This document shows, piece by piece, positions 15,141 through 39,082 of a DNA stretch of 64,000 bases; position 1 is the first letter of the stretch, and each line of letters starts with the position of its first letter. Origin of the DNA: Justusliebigvirus alia. The stretch lies in the sequence record OZ035799.1, one strand, 5' to 3'. The position numbers and the translations under genes were made by a program. The notes below the pieces were generated by a model that was not told where the DNA came from, made no database searches, and saw nothing but the letters and a program-made list of their open reading frames with translations.

Positions 15141-15813
15141 GTTTTTGAGCCTCCTCATAAGAGATAAAAGTTTTACCATTGCGAAGATCCTCCAGTGATT
15201 GTTTATATTGTTCCCAGTTTACACCAATCCCCTGTTCTTTCTCTTCTTTTGACAGATTCGCAAAAGGTAAAGGATTGTCTCCAAACACATCGTCAGGATG
15301 GATAAACGCCATAATTCGAATAGGACATGGTACGCCTTGAATACCTCGGTTCAAACCTGCCAGTGGAACGCGATGAATCCACTCTGCATCTTCATATCCA
15401 TAACCGTGGGTGTATGAGCGGAAATAGCCAGCTTTCTCAATAACTGCACGGGAATACATACCAAACTGGCACATTCCTAGCTCCCAAATAACCACTTCCC
15501 CTTCAATACCTTTTACTTTATCTTTAAAGTATTCAGGCATACCAAAGAAATCCCAACCATTTTCCTTCGCCTGTTTTACAAAATATGTTTCCCAACCTTG
15601 AACAACAGGATAGCAATCATCATCAAAAATAAACCAGTAATCATACCCTTCATCATAAAACTTTTTCATCAGTTCATTACGGGCATATGCAACACCTTTT
15701 CGTTCACGATCATACTGCACAACAAAAGTAGCATTAGGATCAGTCACAAGATAATCTTTAAGAGGACGCTTACCTACAGTAATAACACCAACACCGATTT
15801 TTGTATTTTCCAA
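15127..15813 (-). CDS. glycosyltransferase family 2-like
   Basis: 228 aa; TTG start 5 nt after AAGGAG; DxD-type FIFDDDCYP and YGYEDAEW motifs. Confidence 0.55.
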   Translation of the reverse strand: MENTKIGVGVITVGKRPLKDYLVTDPNATFVVQYDRERKGVAYARNELMKKFYDEGYDYWFIFDDDCYPVVQGWETYFVKQAKENGWDFFGMPEYFKDKVKGIEGEVVIWELGMCQFGMYSRAVIEKAGYFRSYTHGYGYEDAEWIHRVPLAGLNRGIQGVPCPIRIMAFIHPDDVFGDNPLPFANLSKEEKEQGIGVNWEQYKQSLEDLRNGKTFISYEEAQKHGKS

Positions 15814-18390: not shown

Positions 18391-18987
18391 TTACTCGAAC
18401 CAATCGTCGCCAGCGCCAAACGCTTTAACTACATCATAAATGTCAAGTCCAGCTTTACCTACACCATATGCTTTCAGTTTCCATTCGTTATCTTCCCGCA
18501 CCAGGGAGGCAACGTGGCAAATGGTATTACCTGCAAGTTCTGGAGCCAAGAAGTCAAAGTCCAGCAGTTCAACGTTACGTTCATCATCGAAGATTTTAAG
18601 GAAACCTTCGGTAGCGTGACCAAGGCGTTTCTTACCCGTTTCGTCATCAATAGTAATTACGAATGCAATTTCCTGTGCTTCAGCAGAGATATTATCCAGT
18701 GTAACATCAATCTGCTCCATTTGCCCTACACCGTCACGAACATCTTCACCTGCAAAAGTAGAACGTTCAGGATCAAATTTCTGTGCGTAGCATACCAAGT
18801 GGCGAGGAGACAACAGTTCCGGCAGACCAGATGCATTGTGTCGGCAAATCAGAGCACTAACATCCAGATCCAGTTTTTCGTTAGATTTCCAAGAGAATTC
18901 CAGACGAATGCGTTTCAGTGCTGGTGCAATCTTTTTCAGAGAAACTTTTTCGCTAGAACCTTTTTTCAGGGAAATTTTCTGAGTCAT
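18391..18987 (-). CDS. terD: TerD-domain protein
   Basis: 198 aa; ISLKKG start, DLDVSA, EIAFVITIDD, EWKLKAYG blocks typical of TerD family. Confidence 0.75.
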   Translation of the reverse strand: MTQKISLKKGSSEKVSLKKIAPALKRIRLEFSWKSNEKLDLDVSALICRHNASGLPELLSPRHLVCYAQKFDPERSTFAGEDVRDGVGQMEQIDVTLDNISAEAQEIAFVITIDDETGKKRLGHATEGFLKIFDDERNVELLDFDFLAPELAGNTICHVASLVREDNEWKLKAYGVGKAGLDIYDVVKAFGAGDDWFE

Positions 18988-19059: not shown

Positions 19060-19854
19060 TTACGCTTTTGCTCCAAATTTTTTAACCCACTCGCCAAACT
19101 CTTCAGATAGCAGTTTATCGTAAAGTTCTTCGTCAGACAAGGACAAATCTGCAATACCGATAAAATCAACATTATCGTATTCTTTTGCCAAGTCTTTCAG
19201 GAATTTAAAGTTTGCATTACCTACACCAACCATAAACCAGTAAACAGGAGTGTTGCGGTGTTTGTTCAGCAAACTACGTACTGCTGAAGTATCCATGTTC
19301 TCCCCGTCAGTTTGGAAGAAAATCATTGCAGGAGTACGATCAACTTGTGCATCAGTATCTACAACCTGTTCTACAACAGTACGTGTAACTTCTACACGTT
19401 CTTTTTTACCAGTTAGTTTAGCAAGGAAACCCTTAGCCGGAACTTCTTCATATTCAACGACTTCGCGTGTAATATTTTTCGTAGGTACACTACCGAAGTA
19501 TGTACCATAGATCTCTTGCATTACTGGAGCATAAGCTGTACCACCATTGATGCAAACATTAGACATGCAAGAGCCGACATAATCATCATATACATCAGCC
19601 GTTGCAGGAGGCAGTTCAAAAGAAGAACTATTGAAAGCCCACATGTCAATCTGTGCATTATCATCAAACTTCATACCAAACGGCAGCAGCTTACCTACAA
19701 AATCACTAACAGTGCCATCACGATACAGCTCACACATACTCCCCGAAATATCTAAGGCGCTACCGACACGAAGAACAACATCGTTAATCTTTTTCTTACG
19801 CAGAGATACAGTAAGAGTTTCTTGACGTTTTTTAAGACTGATTTTATTGGACAT
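19060..19854 (-). CDS. von Willebrand factor A domain protein (TerY-like)
   Basis: 264 aa; MIDAS motif LDISGSM; AAGGAGA RBS. Confidence 0.55.
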   Translation of the reverse strand: MSNKISLKKRQETLTVSLRKKKINDVVLRVGSALDISGSMCELYRDGTVSDFVGKLLPFGMKFDDNAQIDMWAFNSSSFELPPATADVYDDYVGSCMSNVCINGGTAYAPVMQEIYGTYFGSVPTKNITREVVEYEEVPAKGFLAKLTGKKERVEVTRTVVEQVVDTDAQVDRTPAMIFFQTDGENMDTSAVRSLLNKHRNTPVYWFMVGVGNANFKFLKDLAKEYDNVDFIGIADLSLSDEELYDKLLSEEFGEWVKKFGAKA

Positions 19855-21100: not shown

Positions 21101-22204
21101 TTAAAGTAGACCACGTTTAACAGTTTGAATCATACCATCTTCAAGAGATTGCACTTCTTGAATGTAATCAATACGAGCAGCACGGGCTTCAGTGTTGATT
21201 CGGTTAGTTTCTTCCAACATTTTAACTAAGTTTTCTTGATCACGACGCAATGTTTCAATATCCAATACTTGACGATTAGCAAGTTGTGTAGCTTCAATTT
21301 GGTTTTGTGCAGCCAGATCACTACCCATTGCAATAGCAGCATTAAATTCATTCAGTACATTGTTCTGCGTATCGGCTGCTTTCTTCTGGCGTAGACTTTC
21401 AATATACATAGAAAAGTTTGCAGAGTAAGCAGGAATAACATTATTCACAATATTACGGGCTGATCGCATCAAACTTGCAGATACTTTCTGCATACTTTGT
21501 ACACGTGGCCCCATCTGAACACACAGTAAGCGTAAGGCTTTCAGGTCTGCAATACGAATTTCAAGCAGATCCATAGTATCACGAGTACGTTGACGCTCTT
21601 CTACCTCATTTTCAGGTAGTGTATTAAGGCGAATTTCTTCTTTTTCATAAGTAGCTGTTAGAAGCTCTATATCCCTGTTTAAGCTAAGAGCATATTTTGC
21701 AATAGCTTCTTCTAAACGTTGCAGATATCGTAAAGAATCTTCTTCTTTTTTCAAGTCTGTTTGGAGTGTCTTTACCAAACCTTCAATACGGTTATTGATG
21801 GTGTCAAATTCTCCAAACAAATCTTCTTTCATACCTAAAACTTTCTTAACTAGTTTACCTAAACCTTTAGATTGTTTAATAGAGTTAGGATCAAGTTGCT
21901 TTGCTTGCTTAATAAGTGCAGTTAAACGTTCACTCATTTCATCTCCCTGAGATGAACGCTGGTGTTTAAGCACTTCAGCATTAAGGTTACGAAGAGTAAG
22001 TCCTGCATCAGCACCAACCTGTTCAATCTCTTCACGAGACATTGGAGGCAGCATTTGTACAGGTCGTGCAACAGCAGGGGCATATACAGGGCTTGCATCC
22101 ATAGCACTTGGAGCAAACAAAGACTTACTTTTTTCTGTTGTTGCCGTGAATACACTCATTTCAGACGGTTTGCTTTTTACGGCACTGATAAAAGGACTGG
22201 ACAT
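21101..22204 (-). CDS. TelA/KlaB-like (toxic anion resistance family) protein
   Basis: 367 aa, helical/coiled-coil; GGAGGAAA RBS; family call from overall pattern only. Confidence 0.45.
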   Translation of the reverse strand: MSSPFISAVKSKPSEMSVFTATTEKSKSLFAPSAMDASPVYAPAVARPVQMLPPMSREEIEQVGADAGLTLRNLNAEVLKHQRSSQGDEMSERLTALIKQAKQLDPNSIKQSKGLGKLVKKVLGMKEDLFGEFDTINNRIEGLVKTLQTDLKKEEDSLRYLQRLEEAIAKYALSLNRDIELLTATYEKEEIRLNTLPENEVEERQRTRDTMDLLEIRIADLKALRLLCVQMGPRVQSMQKVSASLMRSARNIVNNVIPAYSANFSMYIESLRQKKAADTQNNVLNEFNAAIAMGSDLAAQNQIEATQLANRQVLDIETLRRDQENLVKMLEETNRINTEARAARIDYIQEVQSLEDGMIQTVKRGLL

Positions 22205-23982: not shown

Positions 23983-24960
23983 TTAAGCAACAGTCTGGTC
24001 TTCTTTTTCAGGGAAGATTAAACTTGCAATAACACCCAGCCCAAGAGTACCTAACACAATATACATACTGATCGTCGGATCAATGTGTGCTGGCAGGAAA
24101 CTCACTTTTGCGTGCAGAGTTTCTGCAAACGGGTGATACATCAGTTTTACACCCACAAATACCAGGACTACGATAACTGCTTTCTCCAGATGAACCAAAT
24201 ACTTCAGTGCAACACTAAGAACAAAGAACAGAGCACGTAAACCTAAGATTGCACAGAGCATCGAAGAGAACACCAGCAGAGGTTCTTGTGTCACCGCAAT
24301 TACTGCTGGAACAGAGTCTACTGCAAAGATTACGTCAACCATTTCCATTACAAACACACAAACCAGAGCCGGAGTTGCTACACGAACACCATTTTTGATT
24401 GTGAAGAACTTCTCACCATCCATCTGATCAGATACAGGGAACAGCTTACGAACAATGCGAGTAGCCCAGTGTTTAGAGTAATCAACTTCTGCATCATTAT
24501 CCCCAGCGAATACCATTTTAGCCGCACAGAAAAGGATGACAGCACCGAAGAAGATATTAACATACCAGCCCAAACTCAACAAGTAAGTGCCTACTGCTAC
24601 AAACACACCTCGGAAGACAATCGCACCTGCAATACCCCAAAGTAGAATTTTGTGCTGCAAGTGTGTGCTTTTAATACCAAAACTTGCGAAGACTGCCACA
24701 AATACTACTAAGTTATCTACAGAAAGAGATTTCTCCAACACATACCCACTCAAGAACAAGCTCGCAAAATCAGCACCGTGTTGGAAGTATACAAAACCAT
24801 AGTAGGCTAATGATACCCCAATCCAGAAAATTGACCAGCCAATTGCAGATTTAAATGAAATTTCTTTGTTTTCTCTGTGTCCAAAGAAGTCAATACAAAT
24901 CGACAAGACTAAAATACCCACTAAAACAACCACATCAATAATTGGGAAACCCAGTTGCAT
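23983..24960 (-). CDS. terC: TerC-family integral membrane protein
   Basis: 325 aa, multi-pass hydrophobic; signature EKSLSVDNLVVF; AGAGGAGAA RBS. Confidence 0.75.
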   Translation of the reverse strand: MQLGFPIIDVVVLVGILVLSICIDFFGHRENKEISFKSAIGWSIFWIGVSLAYYGFVYFQHGADFASLFLSGYVLEKSLSVDNLVVFVAVFASFGIKSTHLQHKILLWGIAGAIVFRGVFVAVGTYLLSLGWYVNIFFGAVILFCAAKMVFAGDNDAEVDYSKHWATRIVRKLFPVSDQMDGEKFFTIKNGVRVATPALVCVFVMEMVDVIFAVDSVPAVIAVTQEPLLVFSSMLCAILGLRALFFVLSVALKYLVHLEKAVIVVLVFVGVKLMYHPFAETLHAKVSFLPAHIDPTISMYIVLGTLGLGVIASLIFPEKEDQTVA

Positions 24961-25037
24961 TCTTTTCTCCTCTTTAATGCGGAGGACAATCCTCCGCTCT
25001 ATGTCTTATACTATAAACTGTTTTTAAAGAAAGTCAA

Positions 25038-25286
25038 CTAGTTCAGTTCTGTAATTTTAAGTTTATCTTCTTTGTTAATGATAGGGAAAGCTACAGCATC
25101 ACCTACGTCATCAATAAAGCAAATAGCAAGACCACCTTCCACTTTGCTAATCTGACCATTAAAGGCGTGATACGGGGCAGGAACTTGATCTCCATCTTCA
25201 AGGAGAATAGCCTCGTAAACCTTGCCGATAGTACAATCACGAGTGTTTCTAAATTTTTCAAGCACTTCAACATTTACTTTACGCAT
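25038..25286 (-). CDS. hypothetical protein
   Basis: 82-aa ORF; upstream stem-loop GCGGAGGA-CAA-TCCTCCGC. Confidence 0.5.
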   Translation of the reverse strand: MRKVNVEVLEKFRNTRDCTIGKVYEAILLEDGDQVPAPYHAFNGQISKVEGGLAICFIDDVGDAVAFPIINKEDKLKITELN

Positions 25287-25300
25287 ATAAAAATCCTCTC

Positions 25301-25507
25301 TTATTTGTTAGATTGAAAGATACCACGAAGTACCGCAAGAATGAACGTCACACAGACTACACTCCAAAACGTTACAGGAACATGATGCCAGTCTAAGCCG
25401 ATAATGTCAATCATATAATTGTATGCTAAAAGCAGTAGCCAACTAGGGATTAACACAATCAAGAACACAACAATAAAACAACCTAATACTGCTAAAACAC
25501 CTGCCAT
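25301..25507 (-). CDS. small membrane protein
   Basis: 68 aa, two hydrophobic helices; AAGGAGAA RBS. Confidence 0.45.
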   Translation of the reverse strand: MAGVLAVLGCFIVVFLIVLIPSWLLLLAYNYMIDIIGLDWHHVPVTFWSVVCVTFILAVLRGIFQSNK

Positions 25508-25516
25508 ACTTTCTCC

Positions 25517-26233
25517 TTATTTCAGTTTGTAAACAATTACATTTAAACCTTTGTTTACTAGAGTTTCTTCGATCATAAGTTTTACAATATTCCAAGAACC
25601 TCCAGCCAAACCACAACCAAGCATTGGTAAACCTACAATTTTACCGCCTGAAGATACAACATCGTCTCCCATACTATCTAACGCATTATAGATAGCTTCA
25701 TAATTCAGGTCACGCTTGCCTTCCTCACGACGACTATAACCATATTGTCCATATAAATTATAAATTGTCAAATTGTTTTCTGTATACTTGGTAAACGTAC
25801 CTAATTTTTTATAATCACCACGTTTAGTGGCACAATCTGCTTTAAACGCACCAGGCCACTTGCTTTTAATTTTTGGTGCAATACCACTACCCATAGTGCA
25901 AAAACAGTTACAGCAGTGTGCTATAGCGTCTATATCGCCTCTCTCGGCTGCTGCTAAAAGATCACCGTATACCTCAATGATACCTGCTGGATAACTTGTT
26001 ACAATTTCATCTTCCCAGTACATTTTCTCTACACCACCGATCAGTGCAAAGTTTTGTGTAATGCGATCATCAATATAGTTAAGACCTGAAACATACACAG
26101 CGTATTCATCCTGTGCTGTAATACCTTGCACACGAATTCTTAAGACACCATCTTTATCTGTTGCTACACGCCCAAAATCTTTTTCTGTAATATTGGTGAT
26201 AGGATCTCCGAAAGTCATTACTTTATTAGACAT
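25517..26233 (-). CDS. macro-domain protein (ADP-ribose binding/processing)
   Basis: Track ORF starts 26350 inside PRTase gene; ATG at 26233 removes overlap; DAIAHCCNCFCTMGSGIA and GLPMLGCGLAGG resemble macro motifs. Confidence 0.45.
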   Translation of the reverse strand: MSNKVMTFGDPITNITEKDFGRVATDKDGVLRIRVQGITAQDEYAVYVSGLNYIDDRITQNFALIGGVEKMYWEDEIVTSYPAGIIEVYGDLLAAAERGDIDAIAHCCNCFCTMGSGIAPKIKSKWPGAFKADCATKRGDYKKLGTFTKYTENNLTIYNLYGQYGYSRREEGKRDLNYEAIYNALDSMGDDVVSSGGKIVGLPMLGCGLAGGSWNIVKLMIEETLVNKGLNVIVYKLK

Positions 26234-27083
26234 AATAATCCCCTTTAACATTAGATTTGTTGATAATGTTGCTTTCAAAAAATTGACGTAGGAAATCAAA
26301 GTTCTCTTTATATTTTTCAATGTTATTGTAGCCTTCTGCAAGGCAACCAAAGAACAGTTGTTCTACATAATACAAAGGAAGTTGTGAAAGTGCAATTTTA
26401 AAATCAACTTCGCTTTGACTCATTAGATACTTAATAGGACGAACCAAACATTTAGCATCAGTTTCTTGCTTAATCATTTTAATAAAAGCTGCCAGGTTAT
26501 TGATATAGTTGAAGTTAAGTGCAGCTTCGGTATTGGCTTCTGTACCTTCATACTTTGCAAAGTACAGGAAAAACGTATCGTTTTCAACACCTTCTTTGTC
26601 TAAAATTTCAATAAGTTTTTCTTCGTGCGTTCCTGTAATATTAACATCATCAATGAAAATCAGAGTTTTATTACCCCAGAAATCACGATTGATAGAGAAA
26701 GTGTCACCATCGATCAAAGCCTTACGATCTTCTTTGCTAAGAAATCCATAATCATTGATATAGCTCACTTTACGATGAACGATATCCCACTCCACTGGTT
26801 TACCACCTTTGATAGAGATTAGGTAGTTGAGGTGGTCTACAAAATGTTCAGATAACACTGTAGCTGCATTTTTCACATAGTTATATGGAGATGGAATAAC
26901 AACAAAACTTTCATTTACCAGTCGTTCTTCATACTTAGAAAAGAAACTTTCAGCCAGAATGCGCCCCATTCTTTTTGCTGCCTGGTTACTACCAAACTTT
27001 AGTTTGGAATAATCTGCAATGTTAAATTTTGCTTCCTTCAGGTTAGTAAAAGTATTAGCAAAATGTTGAATTTGATTACGCAT
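26226..27083 (-). CDS. type I phosphoribosyltransferase
   Basis: 285 aa; PRPP-binding motif LIFIDDVNITGTH. Confidence 0.65.
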   Translation of the reverse strand: MRNQIQHFANTFTNLKEAKFNIADYSKLKFGSNQAAKRMGRILAESFFSKYEERLVNESFVVIPSPYNYVKNAATVLSEHFVDHLNYLISIKGGKPVEWDIVHRKVSYINDYGFLSKEDRKALIDGDTFSINRDFWGNKTLIFIDDVNITGTHEEKLIEILDKEGVENDTFFLYFAKYEGTEANTEAALNFNYINNLAAFIKMIKQETDAKCLVRPIKYLMSQSEVDFKIALSQLPLYYVEQLFFGCLAEGYNNIEKYKENFDFLRQFFESNIINKSNVKGDYYV

Positions 27084-27732
27084 TAATAAGTTCCTCTTTT
27101 TTAAGTTTAGCCAACAAGTCTTCTGGATTAATAATATGACAGAACTTCATCCCTATGTCAACAGCTTTTCCATCATAGATCAAACTATCTCCAACGTGTA
27201 AGATCTCCTCTGGTGCGAGATCAAACGTTACCATTTCATCAAAAGAGAGTTTAAAAAACCTAGGATCTGGTTTACACAAGCAAAACTCATCAGAAAAATG
27301 CATAAAGTCAAATGGTAATTTTGTCAAGCCAGAATATACAGCTAAGAAACTACCAGGTACAAAATTGGTATTGCTCTTAATACTCAAAGAATAGGTTGAA
27401 CTTAGCTCTTCCAACTTCTTGCAAAGTTCAGGGTTTAATGTTGGAGGATGTTTTATAAACATTGCTAAACAGTCTCTTTTTAACCCATCTACTTTATCAA
27501 GATCAATGTTCAAACGAGCAGAAAGTGTTTCCCAAGCATTTCTAGATGTTCCACAAATGCCTTTTTCTGCTTTTAAATCCAGGAGAGTTTTTACCTCTTT
27601 ATATACGGTAGCTGCTTCTACCTCAGAACAAGAGGCATACTCGGCAATAACCTTGTTGCGTTCTTCTGCATACAAAGGATTAGCAGTAATAAGAGTATTC
27701 CATACATCAAAAGAAATATGCTTAACAGTCAT
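27076..27732 (-). CDS. HAD-superfamily phosphatase
   Basis: ATG at 27732 follows GGAGGA; motif I FDVWNT and motif IV HVGDS..D. Confidence 0.6.
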   Translation of the reverse strand: MTVKHISFDVWNTLITANPLYAEERNKVIAEYASCSEVEAATVYKEVKTLLDLKAEKGICGTSRNAWETLSARLNIDLDKVDGLKRDCLAMFIKHPPTLNPELCKKLEELSSTYSLSIKSNTNFVPGSFLAVYSGLTKLPFDFMHFSDEFCLCKPDPRFFKLSFDEMVTFDLAPEEILHVGDSLIYDGKAVDIGMKFCHIINPEDLLAKLKKEELINA

Positions 27733-27734
27733 TT

Positions 27735-27890
27735 TTAATCCTCCGTCCAAAAGAATATCATCTGCTTAATTTTATTGATCTCTTGATGTAGTAACTTTCC
27801 AGCATGTGATTGATCTTTAATATTGACAGCAAGAATTTCAAGCTCCGTCAGTTTTTCTTGGATAGCTTTATATTCATCATCTGTAAGCAT
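27735..27890 (-). CDS. small hypothetical protein (51 aa)
   Basis: Not in track (<60 aa); ATG after GGGGAAG; fills gap between flanking genes. Confidence 0.3.
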   Translation of the reverse strand: MLTDDEYKAIQEKLTELEILAVNIKDQSHAGKLLHQEINKIKQMIFFWTED

Positions 27891-27901
27891 TTTCTTCCCC
27901 T

Positions 27902-28093
27902 TTAGAATGGTAATCTTTGTATGTCACTTATCCCCACACCAAGAAGTCTAGCAATATCCTTATCTAAAAGCAACTCTTTTTGTTCTAAAATGTTAATCAG
28001 ATCTCCTAATACTTCTTTAATGTCACGATCATTTTTAGCAACGTGACCACCTGCCGTATCAACTTTATCTTTAAAAACAAAGTAATGATCCAT
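27902..28093 (-). CDS. hypothetical protein
   Basis: Track start 28105; ATG at 28093 has GGAGGG RBS. Confidence 0.45.
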   Translation of the reverse strand: MDHYFVFKDKVDTAGGHVAKNDRDIKEVLGDLINILEQKELLLDKDIARLLGVGISDIQRLPF

Positions 28094-28139
28094 AATACCC
28101 TCCATATAAATAAAGGAGGCTTTCGCCTCCTTTTATCAC

Positions 28140-29320: not shown

Positions 29321-29791
29321 TTAGTCAGATTCCCAAATGTTGTCTTTCTTAATCCACATTCGTTGATTATCTGAACCTCTATAACGTTTCGTTGTTGGTT
29401 GATTCATATCATACTTACCATCTATCACTATGTCAACCAGTTTTTTAATTTTTTCTGGAATTTCTTCAAAAAGATATCCTGTATATAAGACAATATCTTT
29501 TTTGTTTCCAAAACAATCTCTTACCTTTTCAAGAACATACTCTACAGTGTCAATGTTCTCTTTGTCAAGAGGTTCACCACCTAAAACGGTTAATCCTTTA
29601 ATGAAAGGTCGAGATAAATCTTTCAAGATAAGATCTAATGTTTCAGTAGTGAACTCTTGTCCGTAGTTATACGACCAGGCTTTCTGGTTAAAGCAGCCAC
29701 GGCAACCGTGGCTACAACCGCTCACCCACAAAGAGCATCTTACACCGTCACCGTTGAGCATGTCAACAGGTTCATATCCGGCGTAATTCAA
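29321..29791 (-). CDS. nrdG: anaerobic ribonucleotide reductase activating protein
   Basis: 156 aa; TTG start; N-terminus MNYAGYEPVD and radical-SAM CSHGCRGC resemble E. coli NrdG. Confidence 0.85.
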   Translation of the reverse strand: MNYAGYEPVDMLNGDGVRCSLWVSGCSHGCRGCFNQKAWSYNYGQEFTTETLDLILKDLSRPFIKGLTVLGGEPLDKENIDTVEYVLEKVRDCFGNKKDIVLYTGYLFEEIPEKIKKLVDIVIDGKYDMNQPTTKRYRGSDNQRMWIKKDNIWESD

Positions 29792-30729
29792 AAATGTTTC
29801 TCCCTTTCTAATACTTCTTGCATTTTACCTTTATTATAAGGGCGAGAGTTAGGGGCAGAAAGGTATCCTGACACTCTTCTGATTACAGATATAGATTCTT
29901 CCTCATGATTGCCACAACTTGGACACTCGAAGCCTTTAGCTGTTGCCTTAAATTCACCATGAAAACCACATTTGAAACACTGATCTACAGGTTGGTTCAC
30001 GCCAAAATAAGGAATTTTGTTGTAGGCATAATCTACAAGAGTTTCCAGTGCTTGCAAGTTATTTTTAAGGTTTGGTGTTTCTACATAACCTATGTTCCCA
30101 CCATTACTGATTTGTGCAAAACCTTCCTCATAATCCCACTTTTGGAACGGGGTAGTGTGCATCCACACAGGTTGATGGAAAGAGTTTGTCAAGTAGTCAC
30201 GATCAATAGAACCTGGATAGCGATCATTTAATGCTTTGGCAAATTTATAGCACAAGGATTCTGCTGGTGTTCCATACAAACTAAAAGCTAAACCAGAACG
30301 TTCTTTAAATGTGCCACAGATATCCTTCATATATTGAAGGATGTTTTTACCCATTGCTTTTGGATTGGTGTTACCTGGGTATAAAATCTCCATAGCTTCT
30401 GCTAAACCTACATAACCGATACTAATAGAGGCATAACCACCTTCGAATAGCTTACCAATCTCTTCATTAGCTTCTAGTCGAGCTAAAGCCCCTTCCATAA
30501 ACAATGTAGGGTTTTGAGATGCTTTGGTATGTCTAATACGGTTAACACGTAGTATATGTGCCTTATACGCCATCTCCATATGTTGTTCCAACAGTTCAGT
30601 AAATAAGATGCCCTTTTCACGGGACTCTGCTGCAATGATAGGTAAGTTTAAAGAAACCACGCCTAAGTTGAAACGACCATCATATTTTTCACCTTGCTCT
30701 GTTGCATAGTATGACAAGAAACTTCTACA
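29788..30729 (-). CDS. nrdD: anaerobic ribonucleoside-triphosphate reductase, exon 2
   Basis: Frame continues from exon 1 across intron (MG|CRSFLSYY); glycyl-radical motif RVSGYL near C-terminus. Confidence 0.8.
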   Translation of the reverse strand, partial: CRSFLSYYATEQGEKYDGRFNLGVVSLNLPIIAAESREKGILFTELLEQHMEMAYKAHILRVNRIRHTKASQNPTLFMEGALARLEANEEIGKLFEGGYASISIGYVGLAEAMEILYPGNTNPKAMGKNILQYMKDICGTFKERSGLAFSLYGTPAESLCYKFAKALNDRYPGSIDRDYLTNSFHQPVWMHTTPFQKWDYEEGFAQISNGGNIGYVETPNLKNNLQALETLVDYAYNKIPYFGVNQPVDQCFKCGFHGEFKATAKGFECPSCGNHEEESISVIRRVSGYLSAPNSRPYNKGKMQEVLEREKHF

Positions 30730-31009
30730 CATTATGTTCAAAGTGGCTCGCAAGGCCACTCCCGCACCATTACGTGCTGCTGCATGTCACCATGCAGATC
30801 AGACTATATCTTCATGCTTAAAGCATGTCTACCATTTGGGGTGTCATAGGCTTACACCCTACGCTGCTACATTCATCACAGCTAGTCGTTAGGCATTTCG
30901 TAATAGTACCCCCCTTCTTCTGTGTTGGGAGTTCTGTTACGTTTAGCACGGGATTGTCTCGTTGAGAGTTCCCCCGTTTAGGCAGATTTTACATGAGCAG
31001 TTATAGTTT
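30730..31009 (-). ncRNA. group I self-splicing intron (ORF-less) in nrdD
   Basis: 280-nt non-coding insert; exon 1 ends in U, intron ends in G; core CUAAACGGGGGAACUCUC...GACAAUCCCGUGCUAAA resembles T4 td/nrdD intron core; P7-like GACUAG/AUAGUC. Confidence 0.7.
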
Positions 31010-31867
31010 ACCCATGCTTGTGACGCGACCATCTGAAGATCCTGTAACTTCTTTGTTTAAAGGTACAGAGATAAAATCAGGATAAATGCGTTCAGCACAA
31101 CACTCCATTGCCAGTTGCTTCAAATCATAGTTTGGATCGCCAGCTTTCATGTTAACACCATCTTCCAAGAAGAAGATAACTTTAGGAAACACAGGAGTTA
31201 CCCTATCTTTTCCTAATCCTTGTTTGTGCACCATTAGGTAGTTTTTAGTGATCATTCTACCAAAAGCAGAGGTATCCAAACCTAAACTAATTGTTATAAA
31301 AGGTGACTGACCATTTACACTCATTAGAGTGTTCACTTGGTAGATTAAAGTTTGCATTGCATCATAGACCTGTTTATCTACCATACGCATAGCAATATCA
31401 TAATCACCAACATCAGCATATATTTTATTAAAACTTGCTTTAACGTATTGACTAAGCCCAGTATCAACATGTGCACAAGTTTGTCCACCATATTGGCTAG
31501 AAGCTACTGCTTGAATAATTTGAGTTAGGACAGTAGTCGCTACACCGATAGATTTTGGTTTTTCAATATGTGCATTACCAATACGGAAACCGTTCTCAAG
31601 CATATCTTGGTAATTTACCAGGCAACAATTAGTTAAAGGTGAGAGTAAATAATCTAAATCGTGGATGTGACCATACCCACTTTTATGCCATTCTGCCAGA
31701 TCTTCCGGTAAAATATGGGTCATTGCCATGTGCTTGCTTAGGATACCTGCTAGTAAATCTCGGTGAGTATTAACAATCATTGCAGGTTTGTTTGCATTTT
31801 CACGAGTAAATTCTTCGGATGTTTGTTCGAGGAATCCGATTACATCCTCATATAGTTTTTGGGTCAT
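31010..31867 (-). CDS. nrdD: anaerobic ribonucleoside-triphosphate reductase, exon 1
   Basis: ATG after GGAGGA; track ORF runs into intron and stops after 3 extra codons. Confidence 0.8.
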
Positions 31868-34346: not shown

Positions 34347-36977
34347 TCAATATCTGCCAGCGCCAAATACACCAAGTTTAATACCATTGATCGGTAAAGT
34401 GGTGCTTGTTGGTACTTTCTCTGTTGCAACACGGTTGATATCTATAATCTCCTGTACGGTTGTATTCCATTGTAAGCATTTAACACAACGGGTGTGCGCT
34501 ACATACAGTAGGTTTCGCTCTGCCTCTTCTAGTCCTACCCATTCACCAGTCTTTTTATCATAGTTGGAAGGAAAATCATTAGCAACAATAACCTGATCCC
34601 ACTCCAAACCTTTAGACTTGTGTGCTGTAGTCAGTGTGACTTTTGCTGTAGGGGAATTTCTATGCGTTCTAAGTGTATGTGCTATAGTGTTTGCCTTACC
34701 AGAAACTACGATGTTTAACAAGCGTTTAGCATCTGGATCAGCCTCTGCACACTCAACAAATTCATCCCAGTCTGCATAAGGTAATACAGTTTCATGTTTT
34801 ACTTTCTCAATATCTCCTCTCCGAAGAGCATTAACACTATCTACCATAGAGATAAAATCCCTGGTATCTACGTTAATAATAATTTCTTCCCCATCTGCAA
34901 TACGATCCATTGCCTCCATAAGCAAGGTTAAATTCTTGCGAAAGATGATAGTGTAAGGTTTTGTATAGTCTACAACATCTGATTTGTAGCTACCTACTAC
35001 AGTATCAAAGCCTTTACCAACCAAAGGATGACGCAAAGGTTCTTTATCACTTAAAATCATATTGGCAATGTTTGCCACTTTGGGGCCAAAACGGAAGCAA
35101 GCAGTTAATGGAAGCTCTGCCCCATACTTAGCTGTTTCAATCATCATATTAGAGCTACCTCTAAATTGATAAATACAGTTGTGGCTAAGAATTTCATTGC
35201 CAAAGAAGTTAGCAGTATCCTCTACTTCAATATCATAGTAGATACCCTCACTATCTACAATATCCACAATCTCTTCTGCTGTTACAGTATCACCATCTTT
35301 TACCAACACAGACATGCCTTTAAACAAACCCGCTGCCGGAATTAAGTTATATTTGGCAGTGTCTACAGAGGACATGCATTCTTTTAAAGATGCAAACGGA
35401 ACTATTTCAAGGATCTTTTGTGCAAAACTCAATGCTTCACAATAAGAATTGAAATATTTACGTACACGGTAACGACCTTCCAATTTAGCAACACTTACGC
35501 TTACACCTGCTTTAATGAGTGAAGCATAGATCGGCATTTCACTTTCTGTCCACTCAAAACTGACTTGTGTTCCTTTACAACCTTGTGCTCGCAAAGTCAC
35601 TGTTAACATTTTTCTTTCATCTACTGCACAATTGATGCTGTGCCAATGTGGATAAGCAAAATGATAGTCTTTATCCTCTAAAAGTTTAAAACCATTCTGT
35701 CCGAATTGTTCAAAGATGTTATTGATCCTTTCTTGATTAATGCCGCGTGAACTTGCTTCAAATACACAAGTAGGAATGCCATATTGTAAACTGTATGCCA
35801 TTTCTTTTTCCATAGCAGCTTCGCGATTTTCAACAATGTCCAACACCCATAATTTCTGTGCTTTTTCAGAACGTGTACGTTGCCCCAGTTTAGAAAAACC
35901 TTCTTTATCATCGAATTTGTTAGTGATCCCTACTCGGAAACCTAAATCTTTCCTCCACATTAGGTATACCACCATCTGGTCATCTTTCAGAACATAGGAT
36001 GAAGCCCAAATACGATGGTTATGTGTCATATCTAAAGTTTTACCTGTAGCAGTAATAATATTCCTACCTTTTGTACGTGTAGATAAAGTCTTATTTGTTA
36101 CTTTTCTAAATGTAACTTTACCATTAGAATAAGACTCTACCTTATCACCGATTTGCAGGTCTTTCATTGTAACCTGACCATTCTCGGTGTTAAGTACCGT
36201 GTTTTCCGACACACATTGGAATTCATCGCCAACTACCACAATTTGTTTTGCAGATTTAGCATTTCGCAGAATAGACAAGAATGCAGGGTTAACATCCTGG
36301 AATTCATCACCAAAAATAATATCATAACCAAGATCAGCACCAGATAATTCAAACAATTTTACATAGGTGTCATGCGTCATCAAAGTATCTGTGTTAGGAT
36401 CGATGCGCTCTCGCCACAATTGTTTTGCATACTTAACTACTTCTGTAATTAGTTTGTGTTCGTTAATACCTTTTCTTTTAATATCTGCAAGATGTACACC
36501 AGGAAAATGTTTACGGCTGATAAAAGGATCATCCGAAAATTCAAACTTACCTACGGTTTGCTTGATCATTAAACCAATCATAGCACGAGTTAAAAGTGTT
36601 TTCCCTCGTTTATCAATAAGATTATTAATCTTAAATTTCTTTGCTATCTCGCTACCTGTACCTGCAACGTTAACATACTGTCCTTCTGGTCGTGACAGTT
36701 TTGCACGTAAACGATGATCCAGGAATTGATAGCAAATAGAATGCAATGTACGGCATTCTACATTTAGTGGCATCTTACGTCGTGCTTCTTCTGCCATGCT
36801 TTTATTGAAAGCTAAGTAAAGAATGCGATCTTCTGTACTGTTAGCCAGCAAATAAAGTGTTGACGTTTTGCCTGATCCAGATTTAGCTTGGATAGTTAAA
36901 AAGCGATGGTCTGGAAAAGCCTCCTTAATAGCTGTTTGCTCTTCTGTTGGAGTGAAGCTCAACTCTTTCTTAGCCAT
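34347..36977 (-). CDS. SF1 DNA helicase (UvrD/RecD/Dda-like) interrupted by an intein
   Basis: ATG at 36977 after AGAGAGG; Walker A AKSGSGKT, motif II GDEFQD, motif III split as GDEFQ|intein|CIYQFRGS, motif VI YVAHTR. Confidence 0.8.
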   Translation of the reverse strand: MAKKELSFTPTEEQTAIKEAFPDHRFLTIQAKSGSGKTSTLYLLANSTEDRILYLAFNKSMAEEARRKMPLNVECRTLHSICYQFLDHRLRAKLSRPEGQYVNVAGTGSEIAKKFKINNLIDKRGKTLLTRAMIGLMIKQTVGKFEFSDDPFISRKHFPGVHLADIKRKGINEHKLITEVVKYAKQLWRERIDPNTDTLMTHDTYVKLFELSGADLGYDIIFGDEFQDVNPAFLSILRNAKSAKQIVVVGDEFQCVSENTVLNTENGQVTMKDLQIGDKVESYSNGKVTFRKVTNKTLSTRTKGRNIITATGKTLDMTHNHRIWASSYVLKDDQMVVYLMWRKDLGFRVGITNKFDDKEGFSKLGQRTRSEKAQKLWVLDIVENREAAMEKEMAYSLQYGIPTCVFEASSRGINQERINNIFEQFGQNGFKLLEDKDYHFAYPHWHSINCAVDERKMLTVTLRAQGCKGTQVSFEWTESEMPIYASLIKAGVSVSVAKLEGRYRVRKYFNSYCEALSFAQKILEIVPFASLKECMSSVDTAKYNLIPAAGLFKGMSVLVKDGDTVTAEEIVDIVDSEGIYYDIEVEDTANFFGNEILSHNCIYQFRGSSNMMIETAKYGAELPLTACFRFGPKVANIANMILSDKEPLRHPLVGKGFDTVVGSYKSDVVDYTKPYTIIFRKNLTLLMEAMDRIADGEEIIINVDTRDFISMVDSVNALRRGDIEKVKHETVLPYADWDEFVECAEADPDAKRLLNIVVSGKANTIAHTLRTHRNSPTAKVTLTTAHKSKGLEWDQVIVANDFPSNYDKKTGEWVGLEEAERNLLYVAHTRCVKCLQWNTTVQEIIDINRVATEKVPTSTTLPINGIKLGVFGAGRY
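35178..36215 (-). mobile_element. intein (~346 aa) within helicase motif III
   Basis: Starts Cys (CVSENTVL), block B THNH, ends SHN followed by Cys; middle region large enough for an endonuclease domain. Confidence 0.7.
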
Positions 36978-36978
36978 T

Positions 36979-37455
36979 TCAACCTCTCTTAATTTGTTTA
37001 ACAAGCATAGGAACAAAATCTCGTTTTAAAATTTGTTCAATAATATGATCAGGTAGCTGTTGGAAATTATAATTAAAAGCTACTGTCTCACCTTTAGGTG
37101 TTTCTACCCGCACATATAACATGTTACGAAGTTTATCCACTTGTGCTGTATATTCTAAACCATGTAATTGATGCATTGCAAACATCAAATCATCAGTTTC
37201 AGTTTGGAATCTATCATTTGCTTGCATTAAGGACAAGGTAAAAGGTAGATTTTCCCTAAGAGCCACCTTCTTAGGAACTAGTGAAGGAAAATACTCACCA
37301 ATAACTTCCTGTGTAAGCTGGATACACTCTTTTTCAATTTGGTTTTGTTCCTTAAGTTCACAAACACTTTTTTGTAAAGTGTTAACCTCTTTTTGCAAAG
37401 CTGCTAGTTGAGCACTTAACTTTCTTTTTTGATTACGACCAAAACGTTTAGACAT
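36979..37455 (-). CDS. hypothetical coiled-coil protein
   Basis: 158-aa ORF; GGGGGAAA RBS. Confidence 0.5.
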   Translation of the reverse strand: MSKRFGRNQKRKLSAQLAALQKEVNTLQKSVCELKEQNQIEKECIQLTQEVIGEYFPSLVPKKVALRENLPFTLSLMQANDRFQTETDDLMFAMHQLHGLEYTAQVDKLRNMLYVRVETPKGETVAFNYNFQQLPDHIIEQILKRDFVPMLVKQIKRG

Positions 37456-38000: not shown

Positions 38001-38366
38001 TTAAACGTTTTCTAAATCTTTTAAGGCATTACCCAACGTTAAAACAATAACATCGTTTGCTGCCTCTTCCCCATTAATATTGGTGAAATTTGGTGTGACA
38101 AAAGTAACCATATAAAACTCGTCCACCTGGAAGACAGCAATAACACCGTCCATCTTAACATCTTGACGAAATGAAAAACCAAGCATCTTCTCTTGCAAAG
38201 GCATATCCCCTTCCTTCATTACTGCCAGGGAGTTTTCAGGAATGTTATATTTATCTGCTCCGATGTAGATGTACGTAATGTTATCTTTATCGTGATGATA
38301 CAGGGTTGCTTTTTCCATATCTAAACCTGACAGATCAAATACGTTAATTTCTTGTGTAGTCTTCAT
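38001..38366 (-). CDS. hypothetical protein
   Basis: Track start 38441; ATG at 38366 has GGGAGAA RBS and removes overlap. Confidence 0.45.
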   Translation of the reverse strand: MKTTQEINVFDLSGLDMEKATLYHHDKDNITYIYIGADKYNIPENSLAVMKEGDMPLQEKMLGFSFRQDVKMDGVIAVFQVDEFYMVTFVTPNFTNINGEEAANDVIVLTLGNALKDLENV

Positions 38367-38730
38367 AAATATTCTCCCAAATCCAATAATCATCTGTGTA
38401 AGTAGGATGCCTTTTATCCCACTCTGTTCTAGCCCAAGCAACCGCTGCTACCAACACATCACCATGACAAGGTTGAGGTGCGCAGAAGCAAACTAAGTCT
38501 TTCCCTTCTAATTCTAACAAATCCTCAAGAGTGATTTTACCACAACGAATTTGTTCCCACAACCACTCTTTATATCTTTGTATAGTTGATCCTCGTGGTT
38601 CATCATCCTTTAACTTAAAAGGATTTGCAAACTTTGAGGCTTTTAACCCCATATGAGGCATAGCTCTGCCAATGTACACTGCACCTTCAGGTATTACTTT
38701 ACCTAAGTGGTAAAAATTTAATACTTTCAT
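38344..38730 (-). CDS. hypothetical protein (DUF4326-like pattern)
   Basis: Track start is TTG at 38754; first in-frame ATG at 38730. Confidence 0.4.
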   Translation of the reverse strand: MKVLNFYHLGKVIPEGAVYIGRAMPHMGLKASKFANPFKLKDDEPRGSTIQRYKEWLWEQIRCGKITLEDLLELEGKDLVCFCAPQPCHGDVLVAAVAWARTEWDKRHPTYTDDYWIWENIYEDYTRN

Positions 38731-38731
38731 A

Positions 38732-39082
38732 TTAACCCAAACACATCTGTGCAATCAAGCCCTGTATAAATTTATTAGCTTCTTTACTGTCGTAGTCAGT
38801 CTCTTCTGGATATCCATCTTCATCGTACACAACTGTACCTTCAATATACCCTGCCTCAATTAAGGCGCGGATCATATCAAATTGCCAGCATGAGTTACCA
38901 AATGGACGTTTACCATTAAAACACTCTTCTTCTCTCCATAACGTAGAGAGTAGTTGTCGGAAATATTCCCGTACAGTGACAGTACCAAGATCTGAATCCT
39001 CAAACATAACATCCAGGGCATCAGGATTGCTTTTCTCTACATAAGGGATATATTTAACACCATTAATAGTTACATCAAGCAT
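38732..39082 (-). CDS. hypothetical protein
   Basis: 116-aa ORF; AAGGAGAA RBS. Confidence 0.5.
   Translation of the reverse strand: MLDVTINGVKYIPYVEKSNPDALDVMFEDSDLGTVTVREYFRQLLSTLWREEECFNGKRPFGNSCWQFDMIRALIEAGYIEGTVVYDEDGYPEETDYDSKEANKFIQGLIAQMCLG

What the first reader, a model, noticed from the sequence alone, without database searches (positions are those of the whole stretch)
25517..27732. Macro domain + phosphoribosyltransferase + HAD phosphatase triad: possible ADP-ribose/NAD-linked counter-defence or nucleotide-modifying pathway
Three adjacent enzymes with chemistry centred on phosphoribosyl/ADP-ribose groups. Phages are known to counter NAD-depleting or ADP-ribosylating defences with macro/NADAR hydrolases and with NAD-reconstitution enzymes; this triad differs from the described two-enzyme pathways and could be a variant, or the biosynthetic arm of the Ter-like cluster.
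Basis: inference. Interest (0 to 1): 0.65.

Follow-up and report, generated by a model that had tools for sequence, protein, structure and literature searches.

The report
Ter-linked enzyme pair plus phage macrodomain
Three overlapping genes of a phi92-like coliphage are real, but they look like two separate modules placed side by side: a conserved HAD-hydrolase/phosphoribosyltransferase pair that travels with tellurite-resistance-type (Ter) genes, and a common phage ADP-ribose-removing macrodomain that probably protects the phage from ADP-ribosylating host defences.

Summary
Window 25517-27732 (minus strand) holds HAD hydrolase, ComF-like PRTase (Pfam PRTase_3, E 1.5e-41) and a macrodomain protein, joined by two 8-nt ATGNNTAA start/stop overlaps. 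The window is 100% identical to Justusliebigvirus alia, where these are phi92 gp187-gp185.

- **HAD and PRTase_3:** they form a fixed pair, adjacent in 42 of 43 loci from phages of 55-500 kb, Bacteroidales, Pedococcus and rhizobia. The pair often sits with TerC, TerD, TelA and vWA-TerF. This is the "signal biosynthesis" arm of Ter systems already described in phages (Iyer et al. 2021).
- **NAD reconstitution:** the PRTase is not NAMPT-like or PRPP-synthetase-like, so a NARP-type pathway is not supported.
- **Macrodomain:** it follows the PRTase only in the phi92/phAPEC8-like clade. Its family occurs in 2,699 phage genomes, against 156 with PRTase_3. It is a TARG1/DarG-class fold with the SCO6735-type active site (Asn109, Gln163). 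SCO6735 removes DarT-made ADP-ribose from thymidine in DNA.

The best reading is a composite operon, with the macrodomain as an AdfM-like anti-ADP-ribosylation factor.

Two unreported details emerged. The HAD family lacks the Asp+2 general acid (D-x-W-x-T). The macro N-terminus is a remnant of a MazG-like gene found in relatives.

Interest is moderate-low.

The parts
27076..27732 (-). HAD-superfamily hydrolase (phi92 gp187 orthologue), 218 aa. Motif I is FDVWNTL, with Trp in place of the Asp+2 general acid. Motifs II (SNT), III (KP) and IV (GDSxxxD) are present.
   Evidence: It lies immediately upstream of PRTase_3 in 42 of 43 loci.
26226..27083 (-). ComF-like type I phosphoribosyltransferase, Pfam PRTase_3 (phi92 gp186 orthologue), 285 aa. 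The PRPP-binding loop D145-D146-x-x-x-T150-G151-T152 is invariant, or nearly so at T152. A C-terminal helical extension of about 90 aa matches no solved PRTase.
25517..25978 (-). Macrodomain (residues 86-238 of the gp185 orthologue), TARG1/DarG/SCO6735 (ALC1-like) class. Asn109 and Gln163 sit at the positions of SCO6735 Asn27 and Gln85. The diphosphate loop is GCGLAGG.
   Evidence: PMC9411070.
25979..26233 (-). N-terminal beta-rich extension of the macro protein, about 85 aa. It is homologous to the N-terminal half of a separate 184-188 aa protein (N-domain plus MazG-like pyrophosphatase) that lies between PRTase and macro in related phages. Here that domain is fused to the macrodomain and the MazG-like part is lost.
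   Evidence: E 6e-7; phrog_1247 MazG-like, E 2e-22, for the relative's C-terminal half; low to moderate pLDDT.
27735..28093 (-). Two small genes (gp189 and gp188 orthologues, 63 and 51 aa) at the head of the same gene block. Function unknown.
   Evidence: The gp188 stop lies 2 nt before the HAD ATG.
25038..25507 (-). Two small genes downstream of macro: the gp184 orthologue (68 aa, hydrophobic, probably a membrane protein) and the gp183 orthologue (82 aa). gp184 follows macro in 9 loci of the clade.
28112..28133 (-). Terminator-like hairpin between the upstream AAA-ATPase gene and gp189. It marks the upstream boundary of the block.
   Evidence: The annotation of phage Paula places a terminator at the same spot.
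24979..24997 (.). GC-rich hairpin between gp183 and terC. On the minus strand it has no U-tract, and it lies downstream of a promoter-like TTGACT-16-TATAGT, so it may belong to the terC leader rather than act as a terminator.
23983..24960 (-). TerC/Alx-family membrane protein (gp182 orthologue).
   Evidence: TIGR03718, E 2e-96.
21101..22204 (-). TelA-family protein (gp178 orthologue).
   Evidence: E 8e-34.
19060..19854 (-). vWA-TerF-like protein (gp173 orthologue).
   Evidence: E 1.6e-38.
18391..18987 (-). TerD-domain protein (gp172 orthologue).
   Evidence: E 4e-28.

Best explanation
The triad is a composite of two modules that happen to share one translationally coupled operon in phi92/phAPEC8-like phages.

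Module 1 is HAD plus PRTase_3, the two-enzyme biosynthetic arm of the phage's Ter-type cluster (TerD, vWA-TerF, TelA, TerC).
- The PRTase is predicted to condense PRPP with an unidentified base-like acceptor, giving a ribonucleoside 5'-phosphate analogue.
- The HAD enzyme is predicted to carry out a phosphoryl-transfer or hydrolysis step on that product or on a phosphoanhydride.
- The result would be the nucleoside-like small molecule postulated for Ter systems.
- Shown here: the folds, the intact PRPP loop, the intact HAD nucleophile and Mg site, the obligate pairing, and the Ter linkage.
- Inferred: PRPP use, the acceptor, the phosphatase step, and the biological role (superinfection exclusion or stress signalling).

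Module 2 is a stand-alone ADP-ribosyl hydrolase of the SCO6735/TARG1/DarG class.
- By analogy with SCO6735 and with phage AdfM, it most likely strips ADP-ribose from phage DNA (the thymidine-linked product of DarT2) and/or from proteins. It would then act as an orphan-antitoxin-type counter-defence.
- Shown here: the fold and the conserved Asn and Gln.
- Inferred: the substrate and the counter-defence role.

In this genus the macrodomain has also captured the N-terminal domain of a neighbouring MazG-like gene.
For: HAD-PRTase_3 pairing and Ter linkage:
- HAD is directly upstream of PRTase_3 in 42 of 43 loci recovered from unrelated phages, Bacteroidales, Pedococcus and rhizobia.
- TerC, TerD, TelA or vWA-TerF lie within 10 kb in the window and in 12 of 33 loci outside the clade. 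One is a Bacteroidales operon with three TerD genes, TerY, PP2C, a kinase, HAD and PRTase_3.
- Iyer et al. 2021 describe exactly this PRTase plus HAD 'signal biosynthesis' component of Ter systems in phages.

Independence of the macrodomain:
- Macro follows the PRTase only in 10 loci of a single clade.
- In some members of that clade, one or two other genes are inserted between PRTase and macro.
- The macro family is found in 2,699 phage records, against 156 for PRTase_3.

Macrodomain class and active site:
- The macro model matches TARG1 (TM 0.90), BT1257 and DarG. By sequence it is closest to SCO6735 and BT1257.
- Asn109 and Gln163 are invariant across 54 homologues. They align with SCO6735 Asn27 and Gln85. 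Loss of Gln85 abolishes thymidine-ADP-ribose hydrolysis and N27S nearly abolishes it.
- The phage macrodomain AdfM defeats DarTG2.

PRTase:
- The model (pLDDT 92.8) is closest to ComF and to type I PRTases.
Against: - The three genes are tightly coupled (8-nt overlaps). The order HAD-PRTase-...-macro-gp184 has been kept across PRTase divergence down to 65% identity and macro divergence down to 48%. This is more stable than expected for an unrelated passenger gene.
- A further nucleotide enzyme (MazG-like) occupies the same slot in relatives. This hints at a locus devoted to nucleotide chemistry.
- No activity of any of the three proteins has been measured.
- The HAD family lacks the Asp+2 general acid typical of HAD phosphatases, so the 'phosphatase' step of the Ter model is uncertain.
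- The macrodomain is only 24% identical to AdfM. It could act on protein, RNA or small-molecule ADP-ribose conjugates rather than on DarT2-modified DNA.
Confidence: 0.6

Rival explanations
1. All three enzymes, plus the MazG-like enzyme in relatives, form one pathway that is not NAD reconstitution. For example, the macrodomain could trim or recycle a ribosyl-linked intermediate or by-product of the PRTase/HAD reaction. Alternatively, PRTase and macro could act as writer and eraser of an N-ribosidic linkage.
For: - The genes are translationally coupled through 8-nt overlaps.
- Synteny is conserved across the whole phi92/phAPEC8-like clade.
- A MazG-like nucleotide pyrophosphatase sits in the same slot in relatives.
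- PRTases make, and TARG1/DarG-class macrodomains break, N-glycosidic bonds to ribose C1 (established enzymology).
Against: - HAD-PRTase_3 works without any nearby macrodomain in 32 of 43 loci, including every bacterial locus.
- The macro family is overwhelmingly found in phages that lack PRTase_3.
- The macro keeps the full ADP-ribose-binding loops of SCO6735 and TARG1. That argues for an ADP-ribose substrate rather than a phosphoribose one.
Confidence: 0.15
2. The triad is a variant NAD-reconstitution pathway of the NARP type. The PRTase would rebuild NAD or NMN from nicotinamide plus PRPP or ADP-ribose pyrophosphate. Macro and HAD would process ADP-ribose derivatives released by NAD-depleting defences.
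For: - A homologue of the macro sits beside NAMPT, Nudix, SIR2 and PRPP synthetase genes in a jumbo-phage contig.
- All three chemistries touch ribose phosphate.
Against: - The PRTase matches only PF15610. It has no Pfam hit to the NAPRTase/NAMPT or PRPP-synthetase families at E <= 0.01.
- The profile search against the PDB gives only marginal hits to the HGPRT PRPP loop, at E 0.1 or worse.
- The same HAD-PRTase pair is embedded in bacterial Ter operons, where NAD reconstitution makes no sense.
- No adenylyltransferase lies next to the triad.
Confidence: 0.07
3. The genes encode ordinary nucleotide salvage and housekeeping: an orotate- or purine-type PRTase, a 5'-nucleotidase, and an ADP-ribose-1''-phosphate phosphatase. 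This is what the legacy GenBank labels suggest ('orotate phosphoribosyltransferase', 'phosphatase', 'hydrolase').
For: - The GenBank annotations of phi92-like phages carry these labels.
- PHROG 335 is labelled 'phosphatase'.
- The region also carries nrdD/nrdG nucleotide-metabolism genes.
Against: - There is no significant sequence match to OPRT or HGPRT beyond the PRPP loop.
- PRTase_3 is a distinct family with its own invariant residues and a unique C-terminal domain.
- It is genomically tied to Ter genes, not to pyr or pur genes.
- The macro belongs to the TARG1/DarG class, not the Poa1p class. Poa1p matches are weaker.
- The HAD lacks the Asp+2 of true nucleotidases.
Confidence: 0.05

Closest known systems
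Ter-system biosynthetic module, PRTase plus HAD (Anantharaman, Iyer and Aravind 2012, as summarised in Iyer et al. 2021, PMC7824862; Pfam PF15610 PRTase_3)
   Same: - It is the same Pfam family, PRTase_3.
- It has the same HAD partner.
- It has the same neighbourhood of TerC, TerD, TelA and vWA-TerF.
- Such modules are already reported in phages: Acinetobacter phage ME3, Caulobacter jumbo phages and 'certain smaller tailed phages'.
   Different: - This cluster has no ATP-grasp, TerB, TerY, kinase or PP2C components.
- It sits in a 146-kb lytic coliphage.
- A macrodomain gene, and in relatives a MazG-like gene, is inserted into the same operon.
- PRTase_3 is not detectable on enterobacterial ter plasmids, so the phage copy is not a recent capture from the host ter island.
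SCO6735 of Streptomyces coelicolor and BT1257 (ALC1-like macrodomain hydrolases; PDB 5e3b, 2fg1)
   Same: - These are the best sequence matches in the PDB, at E about 3e-15.
- The active-site pattern is the same: Asn in the HxCN motif, Gln in the GQxG motif, and GCGLAGG.
- TARG1's Lys84 and Asp125 are absent in both.
   Different: - The phage protein has Cys at the Val25 position.
- It has Ser at the Lys89 position of the mobile loop, with two Arg residues following.
- It carries an unrelated 85-aa N-terminal domain.
- No activity has been measured.
AdfM, anti-DarT factor macro (PhiKZ gp104; PMC13309987), and DarG2 macrodomains
   Same: - It is a phage-encoded stand-alone macrodomain of the DarG/TARG1 structural class.
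- It is predicted to erase ADP-ribose from DNA.
- It matches the PADLOC and NCBIfam DarG models at about 1e-13.
   Different: - It is only 24% identical to AdfM (E 1e-3).
- It has Gln instead of the catalytic Lys of DarG and AdfM.
- It has no DarT-binding domain.
- The host phage makes no nucleus.
NARP1/NARP2 phage NAD-reconstitution pathways (own knowledge: Adps plus Namat, and Nampt plus Nmnat)
   Same: They are phage-encoded and use PRPP-type chemistry in a counter-defence setting.
   Different: The enzyme families differ. The NARP pathways use PRPP-synthetase-like and NAMPT-type type II PRTases, whereas this is a ComF-like type I PRTase. No adenylyltransferase is present. Membership was tested and not met.
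ComF/ComFC competence proteins (PDB 7p0h)
   Different: - Identity is only 13%.
- The N-terminal zinc finger of ComF is absent.
- PRTase_3 has its own C-terminal helical domain.
- The genomic context is different.

Membership tests
Pfam PRTase_3 (PF15610), the Ter-associated ComF-like PRTase | Full-length match to the family model above the gathering score. | tested here: met
   143 bits against a cutoff of 28.7, E 1.5e-41, model positions 14-264 of 264.
Pfam PRTase_3 (PF15610), the Ter-associated ComF-like PRTase | Type I PRTase PRPP-binding loop: a hydrophobic strand, two acidic residues, then T-G-T. | tested here: met
   The loop reads LIFIDDVNITGTH. D145, D146, T150 and G151 are invariant in 63 homologues and T152 is nearly invariant.
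Ter-system biosynthetic module (PRTase plus HAD) | An adjacent HAD-family gene. | tested here: met
   HAD lies directly upstream with an 8-nt overlap. The same arrangement is seen in 42 of 43 loci.
Ter-system biosynthetic module (PRTase plus HAD) | Genomic linkage to TerD, TerC, TelA or vWA-TerF genes. | tested here: met
   TerC lies 0.6 kb downstream of the seven-gene block (2.1 kb from the HAD stop). TelA, vWA-TerF and TerD lie within 9 kb. The same linkage is seen in unrelated phages and bacteria.
Ter-system biosynthetic module (PRTase plus HAD) | [quoted passage not shown] | not testable with these tools
   This requires enzymology or metabolomics. To my knowledge it has never been shown for any member.
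HAD phosphatases (canonical) | Motif I DxDx[TV], in which the second Asp (Asp+2) is the general acid/base. | tested here: not met
   Motif I is D-V-W-N-T. Position +2 is Trp (one locus Tyr) in the phage and bacterial homologues aligned from 40 loci, and also in the nearest PDB relative, 2om6.
HAD superfamily | Nucleophile Asp, motif II Ser/Thr, motif III Lys, and motif IV acidic pair (GDxxxD). | tested here: met
   D8, SNT (120-122), KP and HVGDSLIYD are conserved across the family.
ALC1-like (TARG1/DarG/SCO6735) macrodomain hydrolases | Macro fold closest to TARG1 and DarG, with the GCGL diphosphate loop. | tested here: met
   Foldseek TARG1 E 1e-12 with TM 0.90, BT1257 and DarG at about 1e-10. 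GCGLAGG is conserved.
SCO6735 subtype | Gln at the TARG1 Lys84 / DarG Lys80 position, and Asn at the SCO6735 Asn27 position. Loss of the Gln abolishes dT-ADP-ribose hydrolysis, and N27S nearly abolishes it. | tested here: met
   Q163 and N109 align with Q85 and N27 and are invariant in 54 homologues.
TARG1 | Catalytic Lys84/Asp125 dyad. | tested here: not met
   Gln and Ala occupy these positions.
DarG2 antitoxin / AdfM | Catalytic Lys (K80 in DarG, K78 in AdfM). For DarG2, also a C-terminal DarT-binding domain. | tested here: not met
   Gln replaces the Lys. The match to the DarG models covers the macro part only (positions 4-147 of 338 and 6-144 of 329). Identity to AdfM is 24%.
DarG2 antitoxin / AdfM | Hydrolysis of thymidine-linked ADP-ribose on ssDNA and rescue from DarT2. 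| not testable with these tools
   This needs an in vitro assay or plaque assays on DarTG2 hosts.
NARP1/NARP2 NAD-reconstitution enzymes | A NAMPT/NAPRTase-family transferase (PF04095) and/or a PRPP-synthetase-family Adps (PF13793/PF14572), plus an adenylyltransferase. | tested here: not met
Orotate/purine PRTases (legacy annotation) | Sequence membership in the OPRT or HGPRT families. | tested here: not met
   The profile search against the PDB gives E >= 0.12, restricted to the PRPP loop. There is no Pfam Pribosyltran hit at E <= 0.01.

The most novel reading that the evidence does not exclude
The operon HAD-PRTase_3-(MazG-like)-macro is one functional unit peculiar to phi92/phAPEC8-like phages. 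In this reading the PRTase installs a (phospho)ribosyl N-glycoside on a base-like acceptor, either a small molecule or a nucleic-acid base. The atypical HAD, which has no Asp+2, and the MazG-like enzyme process the phosphates. The SCO6735-type macrodomain reverses or edits the ribosyl linkage. That would make a writer/eraser pair and would link Ter-type signalling chemistry to ADP-ribose biology for the first time.
Probability: 0.1. Interest if true: 0.75.

Novelty: new member of a known kind. Interest (0 to 1): 0.35.

Why it matters
- **The Ter biosynthetic arm is still unsolved.** The Ter PRTase/HAD module is widespread in bacteria, plasmids and large phages, but its product has never been identified. 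A small, genetically tractable E. coli phage from a genus represented in the BASEL collection carries a minimal version: one TerD, TerC, TelA, vWA-TerF, HAD and PRTase_3. That makes it a convenient system for finding the metabolite and learning why a lytic phage needs it.
- **The HAD motif may change the proposed chemistry.** The whole HAD family lacks the Asp+2 general acid. The assumed 'nucleotide phosphatase' step may therefore be wrong, or may act on a substrate with a good leaving group.
- **The macrodomain may explain phage resistance.** If it is an SCO6735-type, Gln-based anti-DarT2 factor, it would extend the newly described AdfM class to a very large set of coliphages (about 2,700 genomes carry relatives). 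This is relevant to phage-therapy host range.

Tried and rejected
- **Anantharaman et al. 2012 (PMC4104200):** I looked for this paper to check what was originally said about PRTase_3, HAD and macro. It is not held, so I rely on the summary in Iyer et al. 2021.
- **Literature searches:** searches for PF15610/PRTase_3 found nothing. Searches for phi92/Stephanstirmvirinae with macrodomain, DarTG or tellurite found nothing on this operon.
- **PADLOC scan:** only the macro matches a defence family, DarG. PRTase, HAD and the Ter proteins match none.
- **Capture from enterobacterial ter plasmids:** rejected. tblastn finds PRTase_3 only on Rhizobium, Sinorhizobium and Hymenobacter plasmids.
- **A riboswitch before terC** (TerC/Alx genes are often riboswitch-controlled): Rfam finds none at the gathering threshold. 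Its only match in the window is a group I intron.
- **The 24979-24997 hairpin as a terminator:** it has no U-tract on the coding strand, so its role is left open.
- **The longer TTG-started macro ORF (277 aa):** rejected in favour of the ATG at 26233.
- **Structure of the macro N-terminal domain:** predicted with low confidence only (pLDDT 45-75), so no fold assignment was attempted.
Full report
**Identity of the window and check of the observation**

The 10 kb around the finding is 100% identical to Justusliebigvirus alia. It is 98-99% identical to many phi92-like coliphages of the Stephanstirmvirinae.

In the annotated relative Paula, the three genes are the orthologues of phi92 gp187 ('hydrolase'), gp186 ('putative orotate phosphoribosyltransferase') and gp185 ('putative phosphatase'). 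BASEL-collection records already label them HAD-like, phosphoribosyltransferase and macrodomain.

All three domain calls hold.
- **PRTase:** PF15610 PRTase_3, E 1.5e-41.
- **Macro:** PF01661 E 3e-7, and PDB macrodomains at 3e-15.
- **HAD:** PF00702 E 7e-6, and PDB 2om6 at 4.6e-9.

The junctions are ATGCGTAA and ATGTCTAA, which are 8-nt start/stop overlaps behind Shine-Dalgarno-like runs. The genes are therefore translationally coupled.

They sit in a seven-gene block (gp189 to gp183 orthologues, 28093-25038) bounded by two GC-rich hairpins.

**Surroundings**

Downstream on the same strand lie four Ter-type genes, interspersed with small and unknown genes:
- TerC/Alx (23983-24960)
- TelA (21101-22204)
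- a vWA-TerF-like protein (19060-19854)
- TerD (18391-18987)

The phage thus carries a compact Ter-type cluster.

**What travels with what**

I collected 43 loci encoding PRTase_3 homologues. They came from metagenomic contigs, IMG/VR viral contigs, one genome per bacterial species, and annotated phages. I mapped the window's proteins onto their ORFs with jackhmmer and then clustered the neighbours. The number of loci carrying each partner was:

| Partner of PRTase_3 | Loci | Notes |
|---|---|---|
| HAD | 42 of 43 | always immediately upstream |
| TerC | 18 | same strand, within 6 kb |
| TelA | 11 | same strand, within 6 kb |
| TerD | 10 | same strand, within 6 kb |
| vWA-TerF | 8 | same strand, within 6 kb |
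| Macrodomain | 10 | all from the phi92/phAPEC8-like clade of about 150-kb phages (PRTase identity 65% or more) |

- A Bacteroidales locus shows the classical extended Ter operon: three TerD genes, two vWA genes, TerY, PP2C, a kinase, HAD, PRTase_3 and a P-type ATPase.
- A Pedococcus chromosome has TelA, TerD, TerC, vWA, HAD and two PRTases.
- Rhizobial replicons have HAD, PRTase and a ClpP-like gene, with no Ter genes nearby.
- One further phage has a macro 6 kb away. The other 32 loci have none within the available flanks.

Across the phage genome collection, PRTase_3 occurs in 156 records. The macro family occurs in 2,699, including T4-like, FelixO1-like, Vequintavirinae and Ackermannviridae phages.

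HAD plus PRTase_3 is therefore an obligate two-gene unit, frequently but not always tied to Ter genes. The macrodomain is a common phage accessory gene that joined this unit in one lineage. Iyer et al. [quoted passage not shown]

**The PRTase**

About 90 C-terminal helical residues match no solved PRTase. The PRPP loop and some forty other positions are invariant, so the enzyme is probably active.

A profile search of the PDB finds only marginal HGPRT hits restricted to the PRPP loop (E 0.12). There is no Pfam hit to the NAMPT/NAPRTase or PRPP-synthetase families. The legacy 'orotate PRTase' label and a NARP-type role are therefore both unsupported.

PRTase_3 is not detectable on enterobacterial ter plasmids. 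The phage did not simply copy the host ter island.

**The HAD enzyme**

Motifs II, III and IV (SNT, KP, GDSxxxD) and the nucleophile Asp are conserved. Motif I, however, is D-x-W-x-T (one locus has Tyr at position +2) in the homologues aligned from 40 phage and bacterial loci. The same is true of the closest PDB relative, Pyrococcus PH0253 (2om6, FDVWNTL).

Canonical HAD phosphatases use Asp+2 as the general acid/base. This is established knowledge of the superfamily. Its replacement is typical of dehalogenases (Tyr), phosphonatase (Ala) and P-type ATPases (Thr).

With the Mg-binding acidic pair retained, phosphoryl transfer remains likely. I infer that the substrate may have a good leaving group, such as a phosphoanhydride or acyl phosphate, or that the phospho-enzyme may be long-lived. 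The 'nucleotide 5'-phosphatase' step of the Ter model should be treated as unproven.

**The macrodomain protein**

The model is confident for residues 86-238 (pLDDT above 90) and poor for residues 1-80.

Foldseek gives TARG1 (TM 0.90), BT1257 and DarG as top matches. Viral MacroD-type and Poa1p macros score lower. By sequence it is nearest BT1257 and S. coelicolor SCO6735 (E about 3e-15).

- It lacks TARG1's Lys84/Asp125 dyad, having Gln and Ala at those positions.
- It has Gln163 and Asn109, invariant in 54 homologues, at the positions of SCO6735 Gln85 and Asn27.
- In SCO6735, Q85A abolishes and N27S nearly abolishes hydrolysis of DarT-made thymidine-ADP-ribose. The enzyme rescues cells from DarT.

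Phage NADAR proteins act as orphan antitoxins against DarTG1. In 2026 a phage macrodomain, AdfM of PhiKZ, was shown to erase DarT2 marks and protect the phage.

The alia protein is only 24% identical to AdfM and uses Gln rather than Lys. It is therefore a different branch of the same structural class. An anti-ADP-ribosylation role, most plausibly against DarT2-type DNA modification, is the best-supported inference. It remains an inference.

**The N-terminal extension**

In related phages, a 184-188 aa protein lies between PRTase and macro. One of these phages carries a further 127-aa ORF there as well.
- The C-terminal half of the 184-188 aa protein is a MazG-like pyrophosphatase (phrog_1247, E 2e-22; Pfam MazG only 0.02-0.07).
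- Its N-terminal 85 residues are homologous to the N-terminus of the alia macro protein (E 6e-7).

In phAPEC8-like phages, macro follows the PRTase directly with neither element. Justusliebigvirus therefore carries a fusion of that N-domain to the macrodomain, with loss of the MazG-like part. The slot between PRTase and macro is evolutionarily fluid. This again argues against strict enzymatic coupling of the two. It does show that the locus collects nucleotide-directed enzymes.

**Verdict**

It is right in spirit, as counter-defence, for the third. The proposal of a single new ADP-ribose/NAD pathway is not supported.

Both modules belong to kinds already described: the Ter PRTase/HAD module and phage ADP-ribosyl hydrolases. 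I rate the finding as a new member of known kinds, with moderate-low interest.

Three details appear unreported and deserve a test:
- the family-wide loss of Asp+2 in the Ter-linked HAD
- the Gln-type (SCO6735-like) active site of a macro family present in about 2,700 phage genomes
- the N-domain/MazG-like remnant

An integrated three- or four-enzyme pathway is not excluded. The tight coupling and the clade-wide synteny keep it alive at roughly 10-15%.

Noticed in passing
window 30780-31055 (-): A group I intron (Rfam RF00028, 72 bits, E 2e-16) splits the anaerobic ribonucleotide reductase gene nrdD into two exons (ORFs 31001-31867 and 29788-30759). Phage Paula has an uninterrupted 1800-nt nrdD at the same place.
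   Followed up: partly
window 34347-37016 (-): The UvrD-like helicase ORF is 889 aa here, against 578 aa in phage Paula. The extra segment (residues about 270-613) gives weak Hint/intein-splicing matches below the Pfam cutoffs, suggesting an intein insertion.
   Followed up: partly
window 38344-38754 (-): A DUF4326 protein (E 1.7e-21) lies about 12 kb from the macro gene. Iyer et al. [quoted passage not shown] The relative L005 also carries it, plus an NMN-transporter (PnuC-like) gene.
   Followed up: no
window 27076-27732 (-) and homologues in 40 loci: The whole PRTase_3-linked HAD family has D-x-W-x-T as motif I (one locus has Tyr at +2), with no Asp+2 general acid. So does the archaeal structural-genomics protein PH0253 (PDB 2om6). 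This is unusual for an enzyme assumed to be a phosphatase.
   Followed up: partly
L005 10844-11398; L032 9505-10071; L033 4024-4590: Related phages of about 150 kb carry a two-domain protein (unknown N-domain plus MazG-like pyrophosphatase) between PRTase and macro. L032 has a further 127-aa ORF (9122-9505) in the same slot.
   Followed up: partly
window 14196-15813 (-): Two adjacent glycosyltransferase-like genes lie between the replication genes and the Ter cluster. One gives a Glyco_trans_1_2 hit. The other gives a weak match to TET-associated glycosyltransferase (TAGT, E 4e-5, below cutoff). They may be relevant to DNA or surface modification.
   Followed up: no
L014, L015, L018, L020, L021 (rhizobia) and L036, L037 (viral contigs): In rhizobial replicons and two viral contigs, the HAD-PRTase_3 pair is followed by a ClpP-like protease gene instead of Ter genes. 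This is a second recurrent context for the pair.
   Followed up: partly
L007 3997-8911 (jumbo-phage contig, GCA_040384245.1): Two tandem homologues of this macrodomain lie in a region rich in NAD metabolism genes: Nudix, NAMPT, SIR2, an NMNAT-like CTP_transf_like gene and PRPP synthetase.
   Followed up: no
phage records MG065645.1, MG065689.1, MG065650.1: Records named 'Campylobacter phage' (A145, A110a, B15) encode a PRTase 99.6% (A145, A110a) or about 65% (B15) identical to that of phi92-like or phAPEC8-like coliphages. This suggests mislabelled hosts or contaminant phages.
   Followed up: no
window 24979-25037 (-): A promoter-like TTGACT-16-TATAGT is followed by a perfect 8-bp GC-rich hairpin just upstream of the terC start. 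There is no U-tract and no Rfam riboswitch match. It may be a leader structure for terC.
   Followed up: partly
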